Origin: Escherichia phage T4
DNA: 64,000 nucleotides
Reading direction: 5' to 3' (one strand)
Sequence record: OZ209023.1
Shown: one piece after another, positions 42,461 to 55,403 of the stretch
Position numbering within the stretch: position 1 is the stretch's first letter
Layout of the letters: every line of letters begins with the position of its first letter
Translations under genes and position numbers: made by a program
Notes under the pieces: generated by a model
Seen by the model: only the letters and a program-made list of their open reading frames with translations
Told to the model about the DNA's origin: nothing
The model's database searches: none

Positions 42461-45307
42461 TGGTGCTTAACCCTATGCATGATTTCTTTATTTTTACCGA
42501 GATTAAATCCGCGTTCGTTCGGATTTCCCAAATAACCACATGTTCTTCTTATGGTATTCATCTTTTTAGGATCAGTTTCTCCACAAATAGAACAAACAAA
42601 TCCGTTTTCAGTAGGAGTCATTTCATGGGTACTTCCACATGTAAAACATTTATCTACTGGCATATTAACACCAAAATAATCTAAATGCTGTGCAGCATAA
42701 TCCCACACGGCCTCAAGACCTTTTAAGTTATTTTTCATATCAGGAAGTTCAACATAAGAAATGTGACCACCTGTCGCAATGAAATGATATGGCGCTTCAC
42801 GAGAAATCTTTTCAAACGGAGTAATATTTTCTTCTACTGAAACATGGAAACTGTTAGTGTACCAGCCTTTATCGGTAACATCTTTTACGCTTCCATATTT
42901 TTCTGTATCGAGTTTACAGAAGCGATAACACAGGTTTTCAGCAGGAGTCGAATATAAACTAAAAGCAAATCCGGTTCTTTCAGTCCACTGTTTAAGATGA
43001 GCATTCATTTTAGTTAAAATTTCTCGTCCAATATCACGACCGACAAGAATATTCAATTCGTGAATACCAATGTATCCTAAAGACACTGAACTTCTACCGT
43101 TTTTAAATAACTCAATTATGTCGTCATCAGGTTTAAGACGAACCCCGAATGCACCTTCTTGGTAAAGAATAGGAGCAACAGTAGCTTTAACTCCTTTTAA
43201 GGAACTAATTCTACACATCAAAGCTTCAAAACATAAATCCATTCGTTCATTAAATAGCTCAACAAATTTCTGTTCATTGAACTGTGTTCCAATATAAGAA
43301 TCTAACGCGATGCGAGGAAGATTCAGTGTTACAACACCAAGATTATTGCGTCCATCAAGAATTTCATTGCCAGTCGAATCTTTCCATACGCTCAAGAAAC
43401 TACGGCAACCCATCGGAGAAACAGGAACAGATGAACCAGTGATAGCTTTATTGTTCTTAGCTGAAATAATATCAGGATACATCCTTTTGCTTGCGCACTC
43501 TAGAGCAAGCTGTTTAATATCATAGTTCGGATCGTCTTTATAAAGATTAACACCTTCTTCAACGAACATAACAAGCTTAGGGAAAATAGGAGTTATCCCA
43601 TCACGACCAAGACCTTTAATACGATTTTTCAGAATTGCTTTCTGAATCATTCGTTCAGTCCAGTCAGTTCCCGTACCAAATGTAATTGTTACAAAAGGAG
43701 TCTGTCCGTTTGAACTGAATAACGTGTTCACTTCATCAATGTGTTCAGTAGAGTTCGCTACTTCTCTACCCGTTTATATGAAACAATGTAATTTGGATAA
43801 TTGTCATCTAAACACAAATCTTTAATACGACTTGGGTGGAGTTTTAAATCTTTAGCAGCATCCACAAATGATTTATAGATATTGTCATTTATTTTAACAT
43901 ATTCTGGGACGGGATGAATTGTTATTTTTATATCTATAACATTTGGATGATTACTAACCTGTTCTTCAGAGCATTTAAGAAATTTTGCAGCTGATTTAAA
44001 ACTTCTAAATTTATTTCCGGATTTTAAAGCTATAGAAACAGTCTTTTTAGCCGTTCTACTACCAATATTATTTTTAACATGAGCTTCACTTCTACTATTA
44101 TTTTTATAATGCTCAATCAATTTCTCTCGTATCTTATCTTTATGTTTTAAAGATAAGATTTTACCTTTATGGGCATTACTAAGTTTTTGCTTATGTTCTT
44201 CTGAATCCGGATATTTGTTAAATTTATATCCACCTATAGATTTATTAAGAATAAATTCGTTATTAAAATATTTCCTAATAAGCATTTCTTCATGTTTAAG
44301 GGCCGATTCATAAGAATCAAAAACTTGAAGAATTATCCACTTAGCTTTATAATCTTTAAGCTTTTCTTTAACAAGCTTAGATGACGAATTGTATTCTTTC
44401 CAATTTGTATCTTTACCATATATAGTTTTGAATTTTTTAAAACCTATATAAAAAGACTTATCAGGAAATCTTACCATATAGGTAAATGCTACAGAATTGG
44501 CAATTTTTAAGCTTTTTCTTAATTTCCATTTCATCGTTTCACCTCGTATTCATATTTATACGAGGATAAACAGCTGCATGTCACCATGCAGTTCAGACTA
44601 TATCTTCAACTCTTAGAGTTGTCTGCCGTTTCGGGTCGCTTGACCCTACTCCCTTACATTCATCAGGGATAGTCGTTGGGCATTTACAGCTACTGCTGAT
44701 TTAGCAACGGATTGTCTCAGTGAGAGTTTCCCGTTTTAGGCAGATTTTACATGAGCTTGACTTACGTTAACTCATAAGCTTGGAATGCATCGTATACGTC
44801 TTTTTCTGTTTTAGATTGAGCATAATTCAACGCATCAGCGATTTGCCATTTTTCTGCATCCTCAATATGTTTTGCATAGGTGCGTTTAACATAAGGAGAA
44901 AGTACTTTATCTACATTCGCAAAAGTCGTTCCGCCGTATTGGTGAGAAGCAACTTGCGCAGTAATTTGTGCCATAATTGCAGTAGCAACTCCAATTGATT
45001 TAGGAGTTTCAATCTGCGCATTACCAAGCTTAAATCCGTTTTCAAGCATTCCTTTTAAATCTACTAAACAGCAATTAGTAAATGGAAGAGCAGGGGAATA
45101 ATCAATATCATGCACGTGAATAATTCCGCTTTCATGCGCTTTCATAATAAAAGACGGGACCATATTTTTGGCAATGTGTTTAGACACAATACCAGCCATA
45201 AGGTCCCGTTGAGTTGGAAAAACACGAGAATCTTTATTAGCATTCTCGTTTAAAAGGTCTTTATTAGTTTTATGAATTAATCCTTCAATTTCTTTTTCAA
45301 TTGTCAT
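42457..45307 (-). CDS. nrdD: anaerobic ribonucleoside-triphosphate reductase NrdD, interrupted by group I intron: complement(join(42457..43736,44770..45307)), 605 aa
   Basis: exon 2 has C-terminal glycyl-radical motif RRTCGYLG and Cys cluster; exon 1 ORF runs into intron; splice sites placed so exon 1 ends in U, intron ends in G and is 1033 nt. Confidence 0.8.
43758..44534 (-). CDS. I-TevII: intron-encoded GIY-YIG homing endonuclease I-TevII
   Basis: 258-aa ORF inside the nrdD intron; N-terminal FYIGFKK GIY-YIG-like motif. Confidence 0.8.
   Translation of the reverse strand: MKWKLRKSLKIANSVAFTYMVRFPDKSFYIGFKKFKTIYGKDTNWKEYNSSSKLVKEKLKDYKAKWIILQVFDSYESALKHEEMLIRKYFNNEFILNKSIGGYKFNKYPDSEEHKQKLSNAHKGKILSLKHKDKIREKLIEHYKNNSRSEAHVKNNIGSRTAKKTVSIALKSGNKFRSFKSAAKFLKCSEEQVSNHPNVIDIKITIHPVPEYVKINDNIYKSFVDAAKDLKLHPSRIKDLCLDDNYPNYIVSYKRVEK
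44542..44565 (-). promoter_or_regulatory. late promoter TATAAATA (44553-44560) embedded in a hairpin that sequesters the I-TevII SD
   Basis: palindrome cctcgtat...atacgagg; minus-strand TATAAATA and GAGG SD just upstream of I-TevII ATG. Confidence 0.6.
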
Positions 45308-46427: not shown

Positions 46428-46748
46428 TTATAGCGTAATCCATTCTCGTACTGTCTGAGTTACTACACGTTCTCGAAGCTCAACCAGTTCAACAGTAGGA
46501 ACTGCATAATACCAGTCAGAATGGTAAGAACCTGAGCGAGATTCATTTACAGCCACATGTACATTATGTTTTGGACTAAAATAAACACACTGACGATATT
46601 GGCATTTACCATCTTGCACCCAGTCTTCTATTTCGATAGGTTTAAGATAGTCGGAAAAATCGAAATCATAGTTTTCCGAAAATGCATCATGGTCTTCAAT
46701 GATTTCGCTCAGAACTGCATCAACATCTAATTTATTTTCAATATTCAT
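46428..46748 (-). CDS. hypothetical acidic protein
   Basis: 106-aa ORF. Confidence 0.5.
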   Translation of the reverse strand: MNIENKLDVDAVLSEIIEDHDAFSENYDFDFSDYLKPIEIEDWVQDGKCQYRQCVYFSPKHNVHVAVNESRSGSYHSDWYYAVPTVELVELRERVVTQTVREWITL

Positions 46749-47314: not shown

Positions 47315-47557
47315 TTATTCCTTAATTCCTAGTACTTGTTTAAAAGTCTCGTCGTAATCAAGACTTTGGCCCGTTTGTTCTTTATGCTTGTATATAATAT
47401 CACTTACTTCTGATAGCATATTTTTATATGAACGAGTTAAAGCAGATTTAAGCACGCTGTATCTATCAGGAAATTTACCGTGTTCATTATAATAAGCTAT
47501 TGCTAATTCACGGACTGCCTTTTCAGCAGTCTCCATATATTCTTTACGCTTTGTCAT
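47315..47557 (-). CDS. hypothetical protein
   Basis: about 80 aa from internal Met (MTKRKEY); longer ORF overlaps upstream gene. Confidence 0.45.
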
Positions 47558-47858
47558 TTTCTTCTCGGTCAAATCGGTGTTTACAATGGCGACATTTATA
47601 ACGAAGATTATTAGTCTGCCAATGGACCAATTGCACCTGTTCAGTTCCACATTCAGGGCAATTAGGAACGTTTTTAGAAGCCCTTTCGCGACGTTCAACC
47701 ATGACCATTACAGAATCCCAATTAACAGGAGGGCTATAATCATCACAACCATAAATCTTTCCACGCATTTCCAGATCGTCTTCTTCACCAGCCATAATAA
47801 TTTTAATTAGACTAGAATTACTTGAAGCTGCAATGTCTTCTAATAGACGCTTTTTCAT
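47544..47858 (-). CDS. zinc-ribbon protein
   Basis: 104-aa ORF with CPECG...CRHCKH. Confidence 0.5.
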
Positions 47859-48781
47859 TTCAATACCTCAATAGCATTACGTAAACCATTTGCTTTGGCG
47901 GTTAAATCCTTAAGAACTTTAGTATGCTCTTCAATCTGTTTTTCAACTTCAATCAAACGGGTACTGAGATATTCGCGTTCTTCTTTCATAGTATCATTCC
48001 CATGATTGGGCTTTGGCGTAGGTTTAAATTTATTAGGGTCCTTTAACTTAATAACAACTTTAGTTTCAAACAGTGAAAGACCATAATTCGTATTATCATC
48101 AAAGGATTCAACTACGTCCATTTTAGACAATAACGTACGAAGATTATAAGTCAAAGAACGAATCGTTTTATTATGTTTATTAGCTTCACATGGTTTCATA
48201 TATGGAAGATTTTTATATATTTCATGCGGAGCACAAACAATAATTAACAATTCAAATGGTCCATTCTGTGATGATGGAATGAATTTAGCCGTAACCCAAT
48301 CTTTTACATTTACATTAATAGTACGATCATCGCCATGACAAAACAGTCTACGAGAATGCTTAAAAAGCATATTCACATTATTATTAAATTCGTGTGAAAA
48401 CTCACTGGCAAATTTTTCTTTACTATCTTTAGAAAACCATTCTTCTAAATAAGTTCTTTTCACGTCGTTAATAATATTAAATGTAACAACATTATCATTT
48501 GATACATTAGTCTCAATGTAGCTTGGATACATAAATTTTTTAACATTATTAACAGCTATCACAGAAGATAGTAATCGGGAACGTTTGAACCACTCGAGCA
48601 AAGAACCAAGAGAATGTGAATACGCATTTTGTGTATCTTTACAAATATGGTTTTCCCATCCAATATAGTCTAAAAAATCACGAAGAATATTATTGATTAC
48701 TTCTCTATGTCCTTTCTGATAATCACGATGTTTAGTAATAAGACTGTCAAAATAATCAATATAATGTTTACGAGTTTTCAT
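47855..48781 (-). CDS. hypothetical protein with C-terminal coiled coil (member of tandem family)
   Basis: 308-aa ORF. Confidence 0.55.
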   Translation of the reverse strand: MKTRKHYIDYFDSLITKHRDYQKGHREVINNILRDFLDYIGWENHICKDTQNAYSHSLGSLLEWFKRSRLLSSVIAVNNVKKFMYPSYIETNVSNDNVVTFNIINDVKRTYLEEWFSKDSKEKFASEFSHEFNNNVNMLFKHSRRLFCHGDDRTINVNVKDWVTAKFIPSSQNGPFELLIIVCAPHEIYKNLPYMKPCEANKHNKTIRSLTYNLRTLLSKMDVVESFDDNTNYGLSLFETKVVIKLKDPNKFKPTPKPNHGNDTMKEEREYLSTRLIEVEKQIEEHTKVLKDLTAKANGLRNAIEVLK

Positions 48782-48835
48782 GTTCTTCTCACTTGGTTAA
48801 TGATTTATACTCCGAGCCATCCTTGGCTTTAAATT

Positions 48836-49837
48836 TTACTTAATTAACTGCAAAGCTTGTTCTAGACGATCAAGACGATTAACGGATTCTTCCCAAATCT
48901 TTTTAGCCTGCTCATATTCTTTCTGCGCTTTATTAGAAATTTCTAGAACTTCTTTATAAGCTTTTTCTAGTGCAATAACTTCTGGACGAATTTCTATCGG
49001 TTCAGGTGAATCATCAAGACATTCCATTAGTTCCTCAAGGGTAGTTTCTTCTTTAGGAGTATTCACAATTTCATCACATTTTTGTTGGTAAATTTCTTTA
49101 CTAGTAGGTGAATAAGCACATTTCACTTCACGAAGGCTAATTACGAGTTTATATCCTTCCCAACCGCATATATTCTTAAAAGGATATGTATGAATATTTT
49201 CTACTGTTTCCATACAAAGTAATGCGGTCTCTAATTGACGAGTTATAGTGCTAGCAATTGAGAAAAATTTATTAATATTCTTTTGGTTAGTTTCTGGTGT
49301 AAAAAATCCATAATTCACAAAAATAGATACTTTATTTTTATCAAGTTCATATTCTTTTATGATAATCATATCAGAAGCCAAAGGATGAATTTGACGATAA
49401 TCGCCATAACATAATTTAGAAGCTGATTTTAGAATTTGCTTCTTGAAAAGTCTGAAATTACTAATCCAACGACGAGTAAAAATATTCTCAGGGTCTTCTT
49501 TATTATTGAGATGATAAGAATTAACATCACCGAACCAATTATATCCTACTACATCTTTAGTTCGTTTAATTTCTTTCCCAAAATTACCAAGAATATCCCG
49601 ATTAACCAAATATGAAAGAAGACGAGACTCTTTAAAGGTTTTCTTGATAACATCTTTATCTACACGGCTAGAAATTTTACGAATTTCATGAATAAATTTA
49701 GTAGAAGAAACAATACTTGCATCAACACTATTGAGCCACTGATTGATAATAGAAAGAACGCTATTTTGGCCAAACATCGGTATAGCTTTATCATCAATAA
49801 CGCTATTGAATGATTTGATATATTCGTTACGAGTCAT
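48836..49837 (-). CDS. hypothetical protein, paralogous family member with C-terminal coiled coil
   Basis: 333 aa from Met preceded by GAGGAG SD; shares RRWISNFRLFKKQILKSASKL block with the next ORF. Confidence 0.55.
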   Translation of the reverse strand: MTRNEYIKSFNSVIDDKAIPMFGQNSVLSIINQWLNSVDASIVSSTKFIHEIRKISSRVDKDVIKKTFKESRLLSYLVNRDILGNFGKEIKRTKDVVGYNWFGDVNSYHLNNKEDPENIFTRRWISNFRLFKKQILKSASKLCYGDYRQIHPLASDMIIIKEYELDKNKVSIFVNYGFFTPETNQKNINKFFSIASTITRQLETALLCMETVENIHTYPFKNICGWEGYKLVISLREVKCAYSPTSKEIYQQKCDEIVNTPKEETTLEELMECLDDSPEPIEIRPEVIALEKAYKEVLEISNKAQKEYEQAKKIWEESVNRLDRLEQALQLIK

Positions 49838-49865
49838 ATTAATCTCCTCAGTAGAAAGTAAGAAC

Positions 49866-49895
49866 ATTATACCACATCCTTGTGGCAAAGTAAAC
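49866..49895 (-). promoter_or_regulatory. early promoter (GTTTAC / TATAAT), near-identical copy of the element at 2429-2458
   Basis: plus attataccacatccttgtgg(c/t)aaagtaaact shared with 2428-2459. Confidence 0.5.
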
Positions 49896-50917
49896 TAGTT
49901 CAGTGCATTTAGTGCATTGTTCAGTTTAGAACGTTGCTTTGTCAGATTTTGAACCCTTGACTGAGCTTGTTCTAACGCCTTTTCAGCTTCTAGCACTTCA
50001 TTGGTCGCTTTAACTAATTCAGCATCTACTGCCTTAAGAGACTTCTCAATCGCATCCGCGTGCCATTTTTCAACAGGTTTAAGACTTGGATTTTCAACAG
50101 GAAGAAAATTCACTTTATTGAATTTCCATGCATCTTTATTACCTGAGCTATACATCCAAAATTTAGGATCGTTTGATAAGTAATTAGATAAATTTAAGTT
50201 ATCTTGCACTTCTTGCTTTTTCTCTTGTGTGACTTCGTCCTTTCTCAAAAATTCATATTTAAATGAAACGATCATATCAAGTTCATATGATGTTGTATCT
50301 AACTTAAATCGTTCAAAACGAGGTAAAATCTTAGATTGAACAGCAGCAACAACATCCATATACTTAAATGCTTCTGTCAACTGCGATTTAAGGCATTCGC
50401 AAATTGAAAGAGAATTTTTTGTATTAGGTTTAAAGCTAATTCGTGCAGTTCTATTATTTTCTTTTAACGGTCTTACTTCCATCTGAAGAGTATAACCATC
50501 AAATTTCAGATTCTTTAAGTTAATGTCAGAGCCTTTTAATCGACTAGCAGTAGACAAAATTTGCTTTAATTGTCTACGGAACAGAGCAATAAATCTCCAT
50601 TCAATACGATAATGATTTGGATTGAAAAATCCAGATGATAAATCGACCTTACTTTGACCAACGCCTTGAACAAATAGAGGATTTTTATAATCAATAGTTT
50701 TACAGAAATCGGTGAGCTGTTCACGAGCAGTCATTTGAGTAATATACCCTGCTTTACTAAAATTACGCACCCATTCACTGCTATTCGTATACTTAAAGTG
50801 ATGAATAACACGATTAACTTTATCAGGGTCTAAATTATTTTCACACAAAAATGTCATAACATCACGAGTATAGCTGGCATTACGAACCATATCTTCAATT
50901 TGAGAACGAGTTTTCAT
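49895..50917 (-). CDS. hypothetical protein, paralogous family member with C-terminal coiled coil
   Basis: 340-aa ORF; RIEWRFIALFRRQLKQILSTASRL block. Confidence 0.55.
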   Translation of the reverse strand: MKTRSQIEDMVRNASYTRDVMTFLCENNLDPDKVNRVIHHFKYTNSSEWVRNFSKAGYITQMTAREQLTDFCKTIDYKNPLFVQGVGQSKVDLSSGFFNPNHYRIEWRFIALFRRQLKQILSTASRLKGSDINLKNLKFDGYTLQMEVRPLKENNRTARISFKPNTKNSLSICECLKSQLTEAFKYMDVVAAVQSKILPRFERFKLDTTSYELDMIVSFKYEFLRKDEVTQEKKQEVQDNLNLSNYLSNDPKFWMYSSGNKDAWKFNKVNFLPVENPSLKPVEKWHADAIEKSLKAVDAELVKATNEVLEAEKALEQAQSRVQNLTKQRSKLNNALNALN

Positions 50918-50925
50918 GGTGTTCC

Positions 50926-51840
50926 TTAAGATTTAAGTAAATCAACAATTTTAATTAACTTTTCACGCTCAGATTTAGCTTTACTACTCAATCCAGATAG
51001 TCTGAAAATTTCATCATCATATTGTTGAATAGAAATATTCAGCTCTTCAATTTGCTTATTAAAATAATCAATTTGTTCAGAATGTTTTTCGTTACTACGA
51101 ACTGGTACAGGTTTTGTAGGCAATTTAGTTGAACTGGATTCATTCGGGCGATAAATTAAAATGCAATTTGAACCAATCGGGCATTTAGCACCAGATGAAT
51201 ATTCTAACGTTCCAGCTTCTTTTAAAACTTCAAAAGCTAAACAGAGATGATGCCCCATATTAACATAATCAGTAGAGCGAGCTCTGATGTAATAATCATC
51301 TCCACGAGTGCTAAATTTAAAGCATTTAAGGTCTTCTGTATTATTAGTTTTAAAAATCATTTGTTTATCTAGACCTTTAGCCAATCGAGCACCTAATGCT
51401 AATAATCGTCGTTGATTTTCCCACAAATCTGCGATCATTTGGTCAAATGATAATTTCGGCATTAGCCGACCATAAAGGTCATATCCTTTATTATAATTGC
51501 GAAGGATTTCACTCGCATTAATACGAGACAACGCTCCAATTTTATTAAGGGCTTTCATAATACGATTAGATAAACTCATTCCAGACCCGTTTGTTCGCTG
51601 TAAATGTTTTTCTAATCCAAATCCAATATCAACTTTAAATTTATCTAAAATTTCAGCATGAACATCTCTGTCAATAACATTCAAATCCAAAGTTGGGTTA
51701 AATCTATGAAAAAATTTATCTGGCTCTCCACGACGTAAAACAGTCCATTCATTCATCATTTTTTTATTAACTAAAGATTTAATTACTGCGTTGACATTAT
51801 TAATTACTACTGACATATTTTCCTCACTCAATTTTACCAA
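50926..51840 (-). CDS. hypothetical protein, paralogous family member with C-terminal coiled coil
   Basis: 304-aa ORF; WENQRRLLALGARLAKG block. Confidence 0.55.
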   Translation of the reverse strand: MVKLSEENMSVVINNVNAVIKSLVNKKMMNEWTVLRRGEPDKFFHRFNPTLDLNVIDRDVHAEILDKFKVDIGFGLEKHLQRTNGSGMSLSNRIMKALNKIGALSRINASEILRNYNKGYDLYGRLMPKLSFDQMIADLWENQRRLLALGARLAKGLDKQMIFKTNNTEDLKCFKFSTRGDDYYIRARSTDYVNMGHHLCLAFEVLKEAGTLEYSSGAKCPIGSNCILIYRPNESSSTKLPTKPVPVRSNEKHSEQIDYFNKQIEELNISIQQYDDEIFRLSGLSSKAKSEREKLIKIVDLLKS

Positions 51841-52225: not shown

Positions 52226-52280
52226 AATAATCTCAATTAAAAGGGCTTAGAACCATTATACCATCCTTGGTATAAAGCGG

Positions 52281-52808
52281 TTATGCGAGTACCGTATTTA
52301 ACCGTTCTTCAAACTTCCGAAGAGTGTTCTGGCGTTCAGCTCTTTGCTTTTTGTAAGTTTCAATACGCTCTGAAATGAGAGTGTATCGTTCATTTACTGA
52401 TTCTTTCATAAAATCAGGAATTTCACGAGAAGCTTTAATCTCGTCAAATTTATCAATAACAGCTTGCTCTTCAGCAATTAAGTTATCATACATCAAAATA
52501 TCTTTCTTGATGAACTCAATATCTTCTTGAGTTACACGAGATAATTTAGATGCTTTATCCTTTTTGTACTGTTCGTTAGTATCACGAGACCAGTGTAATG
52601 TACGATTTTTATTCGTATTCTTGTAAATTTCTACAATACCAATCTCATCGATAATAACGATCCAATTCCAACGGGATTTGTAAATTTGTCCTCCATTAAC
52701 AGTGATTTCACCTCCGATTGAGATGTCATTAAAGAACTTGCTTTGTGCTTCTGATTTAAATTTACCATCGTTGTAATTTACCAGGTTGAAAATATCTTTA
52801 GCGTTCAT
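52281..52808 (-). CDS. hypothetical protein
   Basis: 175 aa from Met preceded by GGAGG SD. Confidence 0.5.
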   Translation of the reverse strand: MNAKDIFNLVNYNDGKFKSEAQSKFFNDISIGGEITVNGGQIYKSRWNWIVIIDEIGIVEIYKNTNKNRTLHWSRDTNEQYKKDKASKLSRVTQEDIEFIKKDILMYDNLIAEEQAVIDKFDEIKASREIPDFMKESVNERYTLISERIETYKKQRAERQNTLRKFEERLNTVLA

Positions 52809-53273: not shown

Positions 53274-54254
53274 TTATTTCAGAAGAGTAACCGTAGCGAT
53301 TTCTTCCCAACCGTTTTTGTCGGTCATAATAAAGTCAGCAAGATAAAGTGCAGTACGCAGTGAAACATTACGTAAACGGTTAACATTGACTTTCATCCAT
53401 GATAATGCTTTATAAGTTTCTTCATCAGAAAGACCACGCTTTTGCATCATGTCGGTTGAAAGAATAACATCTTCAACCCTGACCATAATTTCTTCATTAG
53501 TGTGAACACCCAAATCCAAATAAACTGAGCGGGACACTAATGCTTGTAAATGTGGAGCAAGTTTAGTACCACGGTCTAATTCGCGGTCAATGTCAACGTT
53601 TGTGATAAAAACAATTGTTCCTTTAAATTCAAACTCACGCTCAATGCCTTTTTCTTCTAAGTAAGAAGATGCAGTGCTCCAGCAGACTTTACGGGTCTCT
53701 CCAGTGTCCAGAGCAGCTTTCAGAAGATTAAGAATGTCCATATCAGAGAAAACATCCACATCATCAATCAAAAGGACAGAATTCTCTTCACGATTATTCC
53801 AAAGCTGTTCATAAAGACCGATACCAGAGATTTTACCGTTAATGCTTTTATACTCAATGTATCCAATATCATTTGCTTTATTCAAAGCTTTATCTAAAGA
53901 ATATGTTTTACCAATACCCGCCGCACCAGAGATAATTAATGAACGAATATTTCCGTTAATAATACCATTCGTCATCATTCCCATAACATTAAATCTTTTA
54001 TTAATGCGGGTTTTCATATCTTCATATGATTCTTTAACTTCTTCAACTTTTACACCATCATATGAAATGTCTGATTTGTAAACCCAAACACCGCGACGTT
54101 TACCGTCAATTTCAACAAAAACTTTACCATCTCCTTGTGCATCTACCGGAGCATTATCAGGGAACCATTCACCTAAGAGCTCAAAAGTTCCAGAGATTTC
54201 TTTACCGAAGTAGATACCCTTATTGATAGTTACAGTTTTCATTTTATTCTCCAA
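53274..54254 (-). CDS. P-loop NTPase of unknown function
   Basis: 326-aa ORF; Walker A GAAGIGKT, Walker B LLIDDVD. Confidence 0.6.
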   Translation of the reverse strand: MENKMKTVTINKGIYFGKEISGTFELLGEWFPDNAPVDAQGDGKVFVEIDGKRRGVWVYKSDISYDGVKVEEVKESYEDMKTRINKRFNVMGMMTNGIINGNIRSLIISGAAGIGKTYSLDKALNKANDIGYIEYKSINGKISGIGLYEQLWNNREENSVLLIDDVDVFSDMDILNLLKAALDTGETRKVCWSTASSYLEEKGIEREFEFKGTIVFITNVDIDRELDRGTKLAPHLQALVSRSVYLDLGVHTNEEIMVRVEDVILSTDMMQKRGLSDEETYKALSWMKVNVNRLRNVSLRTALYLADFIMTDKNGWEEIATVTLLK

Positions 54255-54356: not shown

Positions 54357-55403
54357 TCATTTATAATAACTTCGATGGTTTTCAAGATAAACCCTCTCAA
54401 GGAAGTCATCCCAGAAACTCATGTCTACTTTTTGCTGCATACCGTTCTTAGAAGCTTCAGTAGATGCTGCTTCTACTTGATCGACCACATCTTCCAAAAA
54501 CTCTTGAACGGTTTTAAATGGATGCTTACCCAACTTCACGTCGAGAATAAATGGAGCATCTTGGAGTGGATAAACCAAGTCACCAGTTTTGTAAATTTCC
54601 AATAGTTGAAGTCCACCACGACAAGCATGGCTCAGAGCTTTCCAGTCAATGCCTTCATTGGCTTCGGCCTTACGAGCACGTTCGCCGTATTCAGCATCTA
54701 ATTTGTTCAGTGACTGCTTAAGCTCAATAAGAGAAAGCGTTGTCTGATATTTACGACCCAACACTGTGTAAAACGTTTGTGGGCCTGTTTTCTCATGATT
54801 ATGGAACACCCATTCACAGAATTCGTTTTCTGGAAGACGATGCTTAATATCTTCAACTTTAGTACGACGCTGCTTAATGGAACCATCTTCTTGGTAATCA
54901 ACCCATTGCTCAGGGATTTGATTAACTACTTTCAATACATCGCGTAATGCAGCCAAACGAGAACCCTTGACGCCGTATTTAGAAGCTTGCTTGCGGACAT
55001 ATCCTAAATATGATTTCATGTTAGTCGTATAAAAACGAGAACGGTTGTCTTGAATAAACTTCCACACATCAGGCAAATCGGATTTAACCACTAGTTCAGG
55101 TGGAGTGTGGAGCATATCCAATGCTACAGTTTCACCATCTGCTGCTAATTTAAAGAAATACTTAAGACTATACAATTCGTGGTCAATATCATCTTTAGTG
55201 TTTTTAGATGATGTGTTGTTGGTATTTTTACTCATGTGCTCTTTGACGTTTCCAATAAGAATATCGCGAGCAGGAGGAACAAAGATTTCTTTAAAATCTA
55301 CATCAGATTCTGGAGTAGAAGTTCCATAAAGATGACTACCAAAATAAGACTTAACTACAGTTTTCATTATTAGACCTTTCATAATCTTCATTAAATTGTA
55401 CAA
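54357..55403 (-). CDS. predicted nucleotidyltransferase-fold protein
   Basis: 348-aa ORF; YFGSHLYGTSTPESDVDF matches the minimal nucleotidyltransferase hG[GS]...DxD signature. Confidence 0.55.
   Translation of the reverse strand: MYNLMKIMKGLIMKTVVKSYFGSHLYGTSTPESDVDFKEIFVPPARDILIGNVKEHMSKNTNNTSSKNTKDDIDHELYSLKYFFKLAADGETVALDMLHTPPELVVKSDLPDVWKFIQDNRSRFYTTNMKSYLGYVRKQASKYGVKGSRLAALRDVLKVVNQIPEQWVDYQEDGSIKQRRTKVEDIKHRLPENEFCEWVFHNHEKTGPQTFYTVLGRKYQTTLSLIELKQSLNKLDAEYGERARKAEANEGIDWKALSHACRGGLQLLEIYKTGDLVYPLQDAPFILDVKLGKHPFKTVQEFLEDVVDQVEAASTEASKNGMQQKVDMSFWDDFLERVYLENHRSYYK

What the first reader, a model, noticed from the sequence alone, without database searches (positions are those of the whole stretch)
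47855..51840. Tandem array of four paralogous genes with C-terminal coiled coils
Four consecutive ORFs (308, 333, 340 and 304 aa) share conserved blocks, for example RRWISNFRLFKKQILKSASKL, RIEWRFIALFRRQLKQILSTASRL and WENQRRLLALGARLAKG. Each ends in a heptad-like coiled-coil segment (ALEKAYKEVLEISNKAQKEYEQAKK; AEKALEQAQSRVQNLTKQRSKLNNAL). Serial duplication with divergence in a non-essential region is typical of host-range or anti-defence families under diversifying selection.
Basis: seen in the sequence. Interest (0 to 1): 0.5.

Follow-up and report, generated by a model that had tools for sequence, protein, structure and literature searches.

The report
Diverged four-gene anti-defence paralogue array in T4
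Four neighbouring phage T4 genes (nrdC.3 to nrdC.6) are very diverged copies of one ancestral gene, and because one copy (nrdC.5) is already known to disarm the bacterial Dsr1 immune protein, the other three are good candidates for undiscovered immune-evasion genes.

Summary
The window is phage T4. The four ORFs are nrdC.3, nrdC.4, nrdC.5 and nrdC.6. Pairwise BLAST is non-significant for five of six pairs. Profile-profile comparison links nrdC.3 to nrdC.4 (E 2e-14), nrdC.3/4 to nrdC.5 (E 1e-7), and the enriched nrdC.3/4/5 profile to nrdC.6 (E 1.6e-7; reversed controls E about 0.3). Two bridging singletons from other genera, matching AlphaFold2 secondary-structure order and shared Foldseek hits agree. 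Each protein has a ~230-aa globular domain with no characterised relative, a variable linker and a conserved 45-60-aa C-terminal helix. Copy number is 1, 3 or 4 depending on the genus. The genes diverge far faster than their neighbours. nrdC.3 has deep allele classes confined to its globular domain, and natural fusions and partial duplications exist. Gene-wide dN/dS stays at or below 0.34 in all informative comparisons. Published work shows nrdC.5 counters Dsr1 and that flanking genes inhibit OLD, Septu and Druantia III. Most likely this is an old, diverged gene expansion of binding-type anti-defence proteins. The mechanism is inferred, not shown.

The parts
47855..48781 (-). nrdC.3, 308 aa, array member (Pfam Phage_T4_Y04OP / phrog_1435)
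   Evidence: ORF; naming; phrog_1435 E 7.7e-101; hhalign to the nrdC.4 family 98.3%, E 2e-14
48836..49837 (-). nrdC.4, 333 aa from the ATG with a GAGGAG Shine-Dalgarno (the ORF list extends it to a TTG at 49888), array member
   Evidence: PF26897 Phage_T4_Y04OP
49895..50917 (-). nrdC.5, 340 aa, array member; Pfam DUF7235; the published anti-Dsr1 gene
   Evidence: DUF7235 E 5e-126; literature; AF2 model; hhalign F34-F5 94.1%, E 1.3e-7
   Evidence: AF2 model pLDDT 79; hhalign F345-F6 93.9%, E 1.6e-7, with reversed controls at E 0.3; the IME523 bridging protein
48323..48373 (-). nrdC.3 copy of the conserved helix-pair block (NMLFKHSRRLFCHGDDR, residues 137-153)
   Evidence: coordinates; position judged from the nrdC.3/nrdC.4 family alignment
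49412..49474 (-). nrdC.4 conserved block RRWISNFRLFKKQILKSASKL (residues 122-142)
50537..50608 (-). nrdC.5 conserved block RIEWRFIALFRRQLKQILSTASRL (residues 104-127), which is helices 105-115 and 117-127 of the AF2 model; the least variable region within the family
51373..51423 (-). nrdC.6 conserved block WENQRRLLALGARLAKG (residues 132-148), within helices 124-133 and 135-145 of the AF2 model; nearly invariant in 100 homologues
47858..47983 (-). nrdC.3 C-terminal helix module (residues 267-308), ending ...[10 protein letters not shown]; stays at 91% nucleotide identity where the rest of the gene drops to 53-67%
48839..48985 (-). nrdC.4 C-terminal helix module (residues 285-333), ending ...RLEQALQLIK
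49898..50062 (-). nrdC.5 C-terminal helix module (residues 286-340; the AF2 helix spans 281-339), ending ...KLNNALNALN
50929..51081 (-). nrdC.6 C-terminal helical hairpin (residues 246-296), ending ...KLIKIVDLLKS
49866..49894 (-). promoter-like site with a small AGGA-loop hairpin upstream of nrdC.4 (TTTACT, 17-nt spacer, TG-extended TATAAT)
48804..48825 (-). related hairpin plus TATAAA element upstream of nrdC.3

Best explanation
nrdC.3, nrdC.4, nrdC.5 and nrdC.6 are four old, strongly diverged tandem duplicates of a single ancestral gene. That gene sits just upstream of nrdC.2 in T4-like phages. It is single-copy in Marfavirus and Kanagawavirus, present in three copies in Mosigvirus, Gaprivervirus and Dhakavirus, and in four copies in Tequatrovirus. 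Each protein has a ~230-residue alpha/beta globular domain with no characterised relative, a variable disordered linker and a conserved 45-60-residue C-terminal amphipathic helix. The family is a set of early-expressed, dispensable anti-defence proteins. nrdC.5 neutralises the SIR2-domain defence protein Dsr1 (published). The other three most likely neutralise other defence proteins or other variants. The most likely mode of action is inferred, not shown: non-enzymatic, stoichiometric binding. The fast-evolving, exchangeable globular domain would recognise the target, for Dsr1 plausibly its capsid-sensing domain, which would be blocked before the late capsid protein appears. The constant C-terminal helix would provide oligomerisation. 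Confidence by component: four-way paralogy about 0.9; the family as a whole being anti-defence about 0.6; a direct-binding mechanism about 0.4.
For: Paralogy: profile-profile and HMM evidence with controls, matching AF2 topology in register and shared full-length Foldseek hits to the Mineola and Cronus proteins. Copy-number series 1/3/4 at a syntenic position. Function: nrdC.5 expressed in trans restores plating on Dsr1 hosts (PMC9391042). All four genes are non-essential on K-12. The genes lie in an anti-defence island: gp49.2 inhibits OLD (PMC13096335), nrdC.1 inhibits Septu, and the nrdC.8 orthologue bas37_0203 inhibits Druantia III. Binding rather than catalysis: no enzyme domain in Pfam, NCBIfam or PDB. 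The invariant columns across nrdC.3/4/5 are T3, R4 and three phenylalanines. Modularity: the nrdC.3 allele divergence is confined to the globular domain while the C-terminal helix stays at 91%. The helix block and C-terminal helix are the most conserved parts. A natural protein joins the nrdC.5 C-terminal helix to an unrelated N-terminus (P0235). All members share the C-terminal motif R-x-K-L-x-x-A-[ILM]-x-x-L-K. Timing: Srikant et al. describe nrdC.5 as an early gene. The Dsr1 sensor domain recognises major capsid proteins (PMC13581612), which in T4 are late products (my own knowledge).
Against: No experiment addresses nrdC.3, nrdC.4 or nrdC.6. They were not among the reported hits in HIDEN-SEQ screens against several defence systems and clinical isolates. 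No physical interaction of NrdC.5 with Dsr1 has been reported in the literature I could search. Capsid-protein sensing by Dsr1 was shown for Drexlerviridae phages, not T4. Gene-wide dN/dS is below 1 in every comparison. nrdC.6 is as constrained as housekeeping neighbours within Tequatrovirus. The nrdC.6 link rests on probabilities of 94-97%, not 100%. The AF2 model of nrdC.5 is only moderate (pLDDT 69.5). Coiled-coil oligomerisation is untested, and the heptad signal in nrdC.3 is weak.
Confidence: 0.55

Rival explanations
1. The four genes are true paralogues, but only nrdC.5 is an anti-defence gene. The others have unrelated host-takeover roles, are redundant back-ups for the same target, or are decaying copies.
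For: Only nrdC.5 has a phenotype. nrdC.3, nrdC.4 and nrdC.6 gave no reported hit in HIDEN-SEQ screens. nrdC.3 or nrdC.4 is absent from whole genera. Natural fusions delete nrdC.4.
Against: All copies keep intact ORFs with dN/dS well below 1 across hundreds of genomes. nrdC.6 is strongly constrained, so they are not pseudogenes. Flanking genes on both sides are validated anti-defence genes. Divergence is concentrated in the putative recognition domain.
Confidence: 0.25
2. The family acts indirectly rather than by binding the defence protein. It might mask or chaperone the phage trigger (capsid protein), or act enzymatically on NAD+ or its breakdown products.
For: NAD+-reconstitution pathways are a known way to beat Dsr1-type systems (abstracts). 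The Dsr1 trigger is a phage structural protein. The nrdC.5 model has weak Foldseek similarity to tail completion and tail terminator proteins (E 3e-3 to 4e-2).
Against: There is no enzyme domain, no conserved polar catalytic-type residues across the paralogues and no PDB or NCBIfam relative. Early expression fits pre-emptive sensor blocking better than masking of a late protein. The tail-protein hits are short and low in TM-score.
Confidence: 0.12
3. The similarity is not homology. The four ORFs are unrelated genes of similar size that share only a compositionally biased C-terminal helix.
For: Pairwise BLASTP is non-significant for five of six pairs. Pfam keeps nrdC.5 and nrdC.6 in families separate from nrdC.3/4.
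Against: The significant profile matches lie in the globular region, not the helix. Reversed-sequence controls and unrelated neighbouring ORFs score E about 0.3. Bridging sequences hit several families by plain hmmsearch. Independent AF2 secondary structures fall into register.
Confidence: 0.03
4. The proteins are packaged into the capsid and injected with the DNA, like T4 internal proteins. The conserved N-terminus M(K)TRxEYI resembles, from my memory, the MKTYQEFIAE capsid-targeting sequence.
For: The N-terminal motif is conserved across nrdC.3/4/5-type members. Internal proteins are anti-defence factors.
Against: The resemblance is recalled, not tested. No conserved (L/I)-x-E protease site follows the motif. 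nrdC.6-type members lack it. nrdC.5 works when expressed from a plasmid in the host cytoplasm and is described as an early gene.
Confidence: 0.03

Closest known systems
T4 NrdC.5 as the anti-Dsr1 factor (Srikant, Guegler and Laub 2022, eLife, PMC9391042)
   Same: It is one of the four genes of this array. It is dispensable, described as early-expressed, and sufficient in trans to overcome Dsr1 from ECOR17.
   Different: That paper treats nrdC.5 as a single uncharacterised gene. It proposes no mechanism, fold or relationship to nrdC.3, nrdC.4 or nrdC.6.
Pfam PF26897 Phage_T4_Y04OP, PF23882 DUF7235, PF26899 Phage_T4_Y05B; PHROG 1435, 2351, 2257
   Same: These families cover the four proteins. 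Pfam Y04OP and phrog_1435 already merge nrdC.3 with nrdC.4.
   Different: nrdC.5 and nrdC.6 are kept as separate families. Here all three groups are linked into one superfamily with bridging singletons. I could not check whether Pfam places them in one clan.
DSAD1, the phage inhibitor of the SIR2-domain defence protein DSR2
   Same: It is a phage protein used to evade a SIR2-domain NADase defence (abstract of PMC10973363). From my own knowledge it binds the sensor region and competes with the phage structural-protein trigger. That is the mode of action I infer for NrdC.5.
   Different: No sequence or fold relationship was seen or tested here. DSAD1 is a single small protein, not a tandem family with a C-terminal helix. 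It targets DSR2, not Dsr1.
Gene-accordion expansions of anti-defence genes: T4 tifA and T6 segmental amplifications, and poxvirus K3L (my own knowledge)
   Same: Tandem copy-number change of counter-defence genes in a dispensable region by recombination. Natural fusions and partial duplications in this array show the same processes.
   Different: Those amplifications are recent, identical repeats selected for dosage. This array is ancient, with copies below about 25% identity and presumably different specificities.
NAD+ reconstitution pathways NARP1 and NARP2
   Same: They also let phages escape DSR1-type NAD+ depletion.
   Different: They are enzymatic pathways. The nrdC array proteins show no enzyme domain or conserved catalytic residues.

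Membership tests
Single nrdC.3-6 superfamily (four-way paralogy) | Statistically significant sequence-profile similarity outside low-complexity or coiled-coil regions, with controls | tested here: met
   hhalign f3-f4 E 2e-14. F34-F5 E 1.3e-7 over globular columns. F345-F6 E 1.6e-7 local and 1e-10 global, with reversed controls at E 0.28-0.29. Unrelated 257-aa neighbours score E about 0.3.
Single nrdC.3-6 superfamily (four-way paralogy) | Intermediate sequences that hit more than one subfamily | tested here: met
   P0236/Marfa gp080 hits F5 at 2.7e-12, f4 at 1.3e-11 and f3 at 1.4e-6. IME523 gp085, which was not used in any profile, hits F6 at 3.9e-9 and F345 at 2.1e-15 by hmmsearch and at 94.7% and 97.8% by hhalign.
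Single nrdC.3-6 superfamily (four-way paralogy) | Same fold | tested here: inconclusive
   Two of the four were modelled. They show the same order of secondary-structure elements, Q3 0.74 in register versus 0.27-0.55 at shifts of 8 or more, and shared full-length BFVD hits. Direct 3D superposition of the models was not possible with the tools, and nrdC.3 and nrdC.4 were not modelled.
Pfam DUF7235 (PF23882) | Score above the gathering threshold of 30 bits | tested here: met
   nrdC.5 scores 420.6 bits. nrdC.3 scores only 11.7 bits (E 0.17, C-terminal helix only), and nrdC.4 and nrdC.6 give no hit. So only nrdC.5 is a member.
Phage anti-defence protein | Expression in trans, or deletion, specifically changes sensitivity to a defined defence system | not testable with these tools
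   Published for nrdC.5 against Dsr1. No data exist for nrdC.3, nrdC.4 or nrdC.6, which were not reported as hits in HIDEN-SEQ.
Phage anti-defence protein | Dispensable on a defence-poor laboratory host and located among other anti-defence genes | tested here: met
   All four are classed non-essential (literature supplement). Validated neighbours are gp49.2, nrdC.1 and the nrdC.8 orthologue.
Coiled-coil protein | Long C-terminal helix with heptad periodicity | tested here: met
   AF2 helices span 281-339 in nrdC.5 and 246-295 in nrdC.6. The heptad score beats shuffles at p<=0.015 for nrdC.4, nrdC.5 and nrdC.6. nrdC.3 is borderline and its signal is not in the C-terminus.
Coiled-coil protein | Forms homo- or hetero-oligomers through that helix | not testable with these tools
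   No multimer prediction or experiment was available.
Gene family under diversifying (positive) selection | dN/dS above 1, gene-wide or at a class of sites | tested here: not met
   Gene-wide Nei-Gojobori dN/dS is 0.06-0.34. One near-identical pair gives 0.82 with dS 0.019, which is uninformative. Site models were not run. Elevated relative rate and allele replacement are shown.
NAD+-salvage or other enzymatic counter-defence (NARP-like) | Recognisable enzyme domain or conserved catalytic residues | tested here: not met
   No significant Pfam, NCBIfam or PDB match. The invariant residues are T3, R4 and three Phe.
DSAD1-like inhibitor of SIR2 defence | Sequence or structural similarity to DSAD1 | not tested
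   DSAD1 was not compared directly. It did not appear by name among the BFVD hits listed. The analogy is functional only.

The most novel reading that the evidence does not exclude
The nrdC.3-6 family is a modular, expandable set of blockers of bacterial pattern-recognition sensors. Each paralogue's fast-evolving globular domain would plug or mimic the ligand of a different member of the large Avs7/Dsr1 capsid-sensing receptor family, which has over 9,000 proteins with many effectors. The shared C-terminal helix would assemble the paralogues into homo- or hetero-oligomers. One early-expressed complex would then pre-emptively blind several capsid sensors before the late capsid protein is made.
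Probability: 0.15. Interest if true: 0.75.

Novelty: new member of a known kind. Interest (0 to 1): 0.5.

Why it matters
T4 is the best-studied phage, yet most of its dispensable early genes have no known function. Showing that nrdC.3, nrdC.4 and nrdC.6 are remote paralogues of the only known anti-Dsr1 protein turns three 'hypothetical proteins' into specific, testable candidates for new immune-evasion factors. The result points to a recognition module (the globular domain) and a constant module (the C-terminal helix) that could guide mutagenesis. It also offers a natural, long-term record of how gene-accordion amplifications of anti-defence genes, so far seen only in short laboratory evolution, can become fixed and diversify. 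In addition, it flags a widespread annotation error, since these genes are labelled 'thioredoxin' in many GenBank records.

Tried and rejected
- **Pairwise BLASTP of the four proteins:** it supports only nrdC.3-nrdC.4, marginally, so it is insufficient on its own.
- **Transitive nrdC.5-nrdC.6 link through ~280-aa ORFs in VR20 and KIT01:** rejected. Those ORFs are positional nrdC.5 orthologues lying next to separate nrdC.6 orthologues.
- **The Druantia III inhibitor bas37_0203 as an array member:** rejected. Its length of 528 bp and its position make it the nrdC.8 orthologue.
- **Profile searches against PDB sequences, and NCBIfam:** nothing significant.
- **Pfam:** only DUF7235 for nrdC.5.
- **Scan of viral contigs with nrdC.3:** only two near-identical loci.
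- **Exhaustive HMMER search of 1.84 billion representatives:** only 18 hits, with no cellular homologues and no direct nrdC.6 hit.
- **Rfam:** no RNA family in the array.
- **Other copies in the 64-kb window:** none.
- **Enzymatic (NARP-like) reading:** considered and set aside for lack of any catalytic signature.
- **Capsid-targeting-sequence idea:** considered, but it rests only on a remembered resemblance.

Full report
**Identity of the region.** The 3,986-bp segment is 100% identical to phage T4 and is conserved at 90-96% in about 500 Tequatrovirus genomes. All four ORFs lie on the minus strand. By RB51 and T4D naming they are nrdC.3 (47855-48781, 308 aa), nrdC.4 (48836-49837, 333 aa), nrdC.5 (49895-50917, 340 aa) and nrdC.6. 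The ATG at 51816 has a GAGTGAGGA ribosome-binding site and is where the database homologues begin, giving 296 aa. The genes sit between nrdC.2 and nrdC.7 in the dispensable nrdC-mobD region. Many GenBank records mislabel them 'thioredoxin'.

BLASTP gives nrdC.3-nrdC.4 at E=0.002 (23.6% identity over 271 aa) and nothing better than E=0.16 for the other five pairs. Family libraries put nrdC.3 and nrdC.4 together (phrog_1435; Pfam Phage_T4_Y04OP). They keep nrdC.5 (DUF7235) and nrdC.6 (Phage_T4_Y05B) apart.

I built family alignments from database homologues and from annotated loci of other genera, then compared profiles.
- nrdC.3 versus nrdC.4: 98.3% probability, E 2e-14.
- Merged nrdC.3/4 versus an nrdC.5 profile that includes its 23-27%-identical orthologues: 94.1%, E 1.3e-7 over 176 columns of the globular region.
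- An exhaustive HMMER search of 1.84 billion cluster representatives returned only 18 hits. One of them, P0236, hits the nrdC.5, nrdC.4 and nrdC.3 profiles at 2.7e-12, 1.3e-11 and 1.4e-6.
- With these additions, the nrdC.3/4/5 profile aligns to the nrdC.6 profile collinearly end to end: 93.9%, E 1.6e-7 locally and 97.2%, E 1e-10 globally. Reversed-sequence controls give E 0.28-0.29.
- A second bridge is the single-copy IME523 protein, which was absent from every profile. It hits nrdC.6 at 3.9e-9 and nrdC.3/4/5 at 2.1e-15 by plain hmmsearch (hhalign). Unrelated neighbouring ORFs score E about 0.3.

**Structural support.** I obtained AlphaFold2 models of nrdC.6 (pLDDT 79) and nrdC.5 (pLDDT 69.5). 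They show the same order of elements: N-terminal helices, a helix pair (the conserved block), a beta-hairpin, a helix, a second beta-hairpin, a low-confidence linker and a long C-terminal helix or helical hairpin. Mapping nrdC.5 onto nrdC.6 through the sequence alignments gives 74% three-state agreement, or 70% without the C-terminal helix. Shifts of 8 or more residues give 27-55%. Both models hit the same uncharacterised Straboviridae proteins over their full length in BFVD: Mineola A0A2Z4QAR2 at 4e-9 and 5e-4, and Cronus A0A2S1GM98 at 1e-8 and 2e-4. I could not superpose the models directly and did not model nrdC.3 or nrdC.4, so 'same fold' remains strongly suggested rather than proven. I put four-way paralogy at about 0.9.

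**Anatomy.** All members share three features.
- The nrdC.3/4/5-type members begin with M(K)TRxEYI.
- The helix-pair block is the least variable part within each family.
- The C-terminal module starts near a P-[VA]-E-x-x-H motif and ends in R-x-K-L-x-x-A-[ILM]-x-x-L-K at the very C-terminus.

**Evolution.** Copy number at the syntenic position upstream of nrdC.2 varies by genus.
- One copy in Marfavirus and Kanagawavirus.
- Three copies in Mosigvirus (nrdC.6, nrdC.5, nrdC.3 types) and in Gaprivervirus and Dhakavirus (nrdC.6, nrdC.5, nrdC.4 types).
- Four copies in Tequatrovirus.

There is no further copy in the window. Between genera the array proteins are 23-61% identical, whereas gp49, NrdC, nrdC.10 and nrdC.11 are 77-90% identical.

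Within Tequatrovirus, gene-wide dN/dS is 0.13-0.34 for nrdC.3-5 and 0.06-0.09 for nrdC.6. One near-identical nrdC.3 pair gives an uninformative 0.82. The values for gp49, NrdC, nrdC.8 and nrdC.10 are 0-0.11. This means faster evolution but no demonstrated positive selection.

nrdC.3 exists in allele classes of >=90%, about 60% and about 56% identity. For T4 versus Bas45, synonymous divergence in nrdC.3 is 0.88 against about 0.2 in flanking genes. The low-identity stretch (53-67% nucleotide identity) is confined to window ~48,730-47,990, the globular domain, and the C-terminal helix segment returns to 91%. This looks like exchange of an old allele of the recognition domain.

Databases also hold rearranged versions.
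- An in-frame nrdC.5::nrdC.3 fusion that removes nrdC.4, confirmed in a 167-kb T4-like genome.
- An nrdC.6 with an internal in-frame duplication of residues 177-259 (phage Sf25).
- A protein that joins the nrdC.5 C-terminal helix to an unrelated N-terminus.

**Function.** Srikant et al. (PMC9391042) found that an evolved T4 clone with deletions lost the ability to plate on ECOR17, that deleting dsr1 from the host restored plating, and that plasmid-borne nrdC.5 restored plating on MG1655 carrying dsr1. They give no mechanism. In HIDEN-SEQ all four genes are non-essential on K-12.

Neighbouring genes are validated inhibitors: gp49.2 of OLD, nrdC.1 of Septu, and bas37_0203 of Druantia III. I identified bas37_0203 as the nrdC.8 orthologue from its size and position. 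The locus is therefore an anti-defence island.

A 2026 Nature paper (PMC13581612) reports that the Dsr1 sensor domain is shared with Avs7 and recognises phage major capsid proteins.

From this I infer, without direct evidence, that NrdC.5 is a non-enzymatic binding inhibitor made early, most plausibly occupying the Dsr1 sensor before capsid protein accumulates. I also infer that the paralogues carry different specificities in the globular domain on a constant oligomerising helix. The rival readings are that only nrdC.5 is anti-defence, or that the action is indirect or enzymatic. Both remain open. Chance similarity and virion packaging are unlikely.

**Novelty and score.** The genes and the nrdC.5 phenotype are known, and nrdC.3/nrdC.4 are already grouped by Pfam and PHROGs. 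I did not find the following in the searchable literature: the linkage of nrdC.5 and nrdC.6 to them, the 1/3/4 copy-number series, the modular pattern of divergence, and the resulting prediction that three further T4 genes are anti-defence candidates related to the anti-Dsr1 factor. I rate this as new members of a known kind, with interest 0.5. It is useful and directly testable, but not a surprise in kind.

Noticed in passing
window 48804-48825, 49866-49894, 52255-52269 and 2429-2445 (all minus strand): A repeated intergenic element consists of a small hairpin with an AGGA loop followed by a TATAAT-like hexamer (CAAGGATG, 0-12 nt, TATAAW). It occurs 4 times against 0.05 expected. Three copies lie upstream of nrdC.3, nrdC.4 and nrdC.7, and the fourth lies upstream of a 67-aa ORF (2200-2403). 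nrdC.5 and nrdC.6 follow their upstream genes after only 8 and 7 nt. This suggests the transcription units nrdC.7-6-5, nrdC.4 and nrdC.3 onward.
   Followed up: partly
window 52281-52808 (minus strand), nrdC.8: By length (528 bp) and position this gene is the orthologue of bas37_0203, which the HIDEN-SEQ preprint reports as an inhibitor of Druantia type III. Together with nrdC.1 (47315-47557, Septu inhibitor) and 49.2 (46428-46748, OLD inhibitor), it makes 46.4-52.8 kb an anti-defence island.
   Followed up: partly
databases: P0056 (L010 5001-5900), P0121 (Shigella phage Sf25), P0235: Natural rearrangements of array members exist. P0056 is an in-frame nrdC.5(146-272)::nrdC.3(134-308) fusion that removes nrdC.4, with an N-x-VN microhomology at the junction. 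P0121 is an nrdC.6 with an internal in-frame duplication of residues 177-259. P0235 is a 173-aa protein that joins an unrelated N-terminus to the nrdC.5 C-terminal helix.
   Followed up: partly
window 47544-47858 (nrdC.2): This zinc-ribbon protein (weak Pfam zinc-ribbon hits) has a synonymous divergence of 0.54-1.2 between T4 and other tequatroviruses, several times that of its neighbours. The deep allele classes therefore extend from nrdC.3 into nrdC.2.
   Followed up: no
window 53274-54254 (nrdC.10) and 54357-55403 (nrdC.11): An AAA/STAND-like ATPase sits next to an RlaP-type nucleotidyltransferase. Both are well conserved across genera (77-84% identity) and both are non-essential. They may form a functional pair.
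   Followed up: no
window 44574-44805 and 43758-44534 (minus strand): A group I intron (Rfam RF00028, 105 bits) interrupts nrdD, and an adjacent 258-aa ORF lies inside the interrupted gene. From my own knowledge of T4 this ORF is the intron homing endonuclease I-TevII.
   Followed up: no
GenBank records of T4-like phages: nrdC.3-6 homologues are widely annotated as 'thioredoxin'. This appears to be a name propagated from the locus label nrdC.x. None of them has any thioredoxin signature.
   Followed up: yes
nrdC.5 AF2 model (window 49895-50917): The model gives weak Foldseek matches to phage tail completion, tail terminator and head-tail connector proteins (E 3e-3 to 4e-2, about 90-130 columns, TM 0.35-0.49 relative to the target). 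This could be chance or a hint of mimicry of a structural protein.
   Followed up: no
N-termini of nrdC.3, nrdC.4 and nrdC.5 and their relatives: The conserved start M(K)TRxE[YF]I (T3 and R4 are invariant in 54 sequences) resembles, from memory only, the capsid-targeting sequence MKTYQEFIAE of T4 internal proteins. nrdC.6-type proteins start MS[VQ][VA]IN instead.
   Followed up: no
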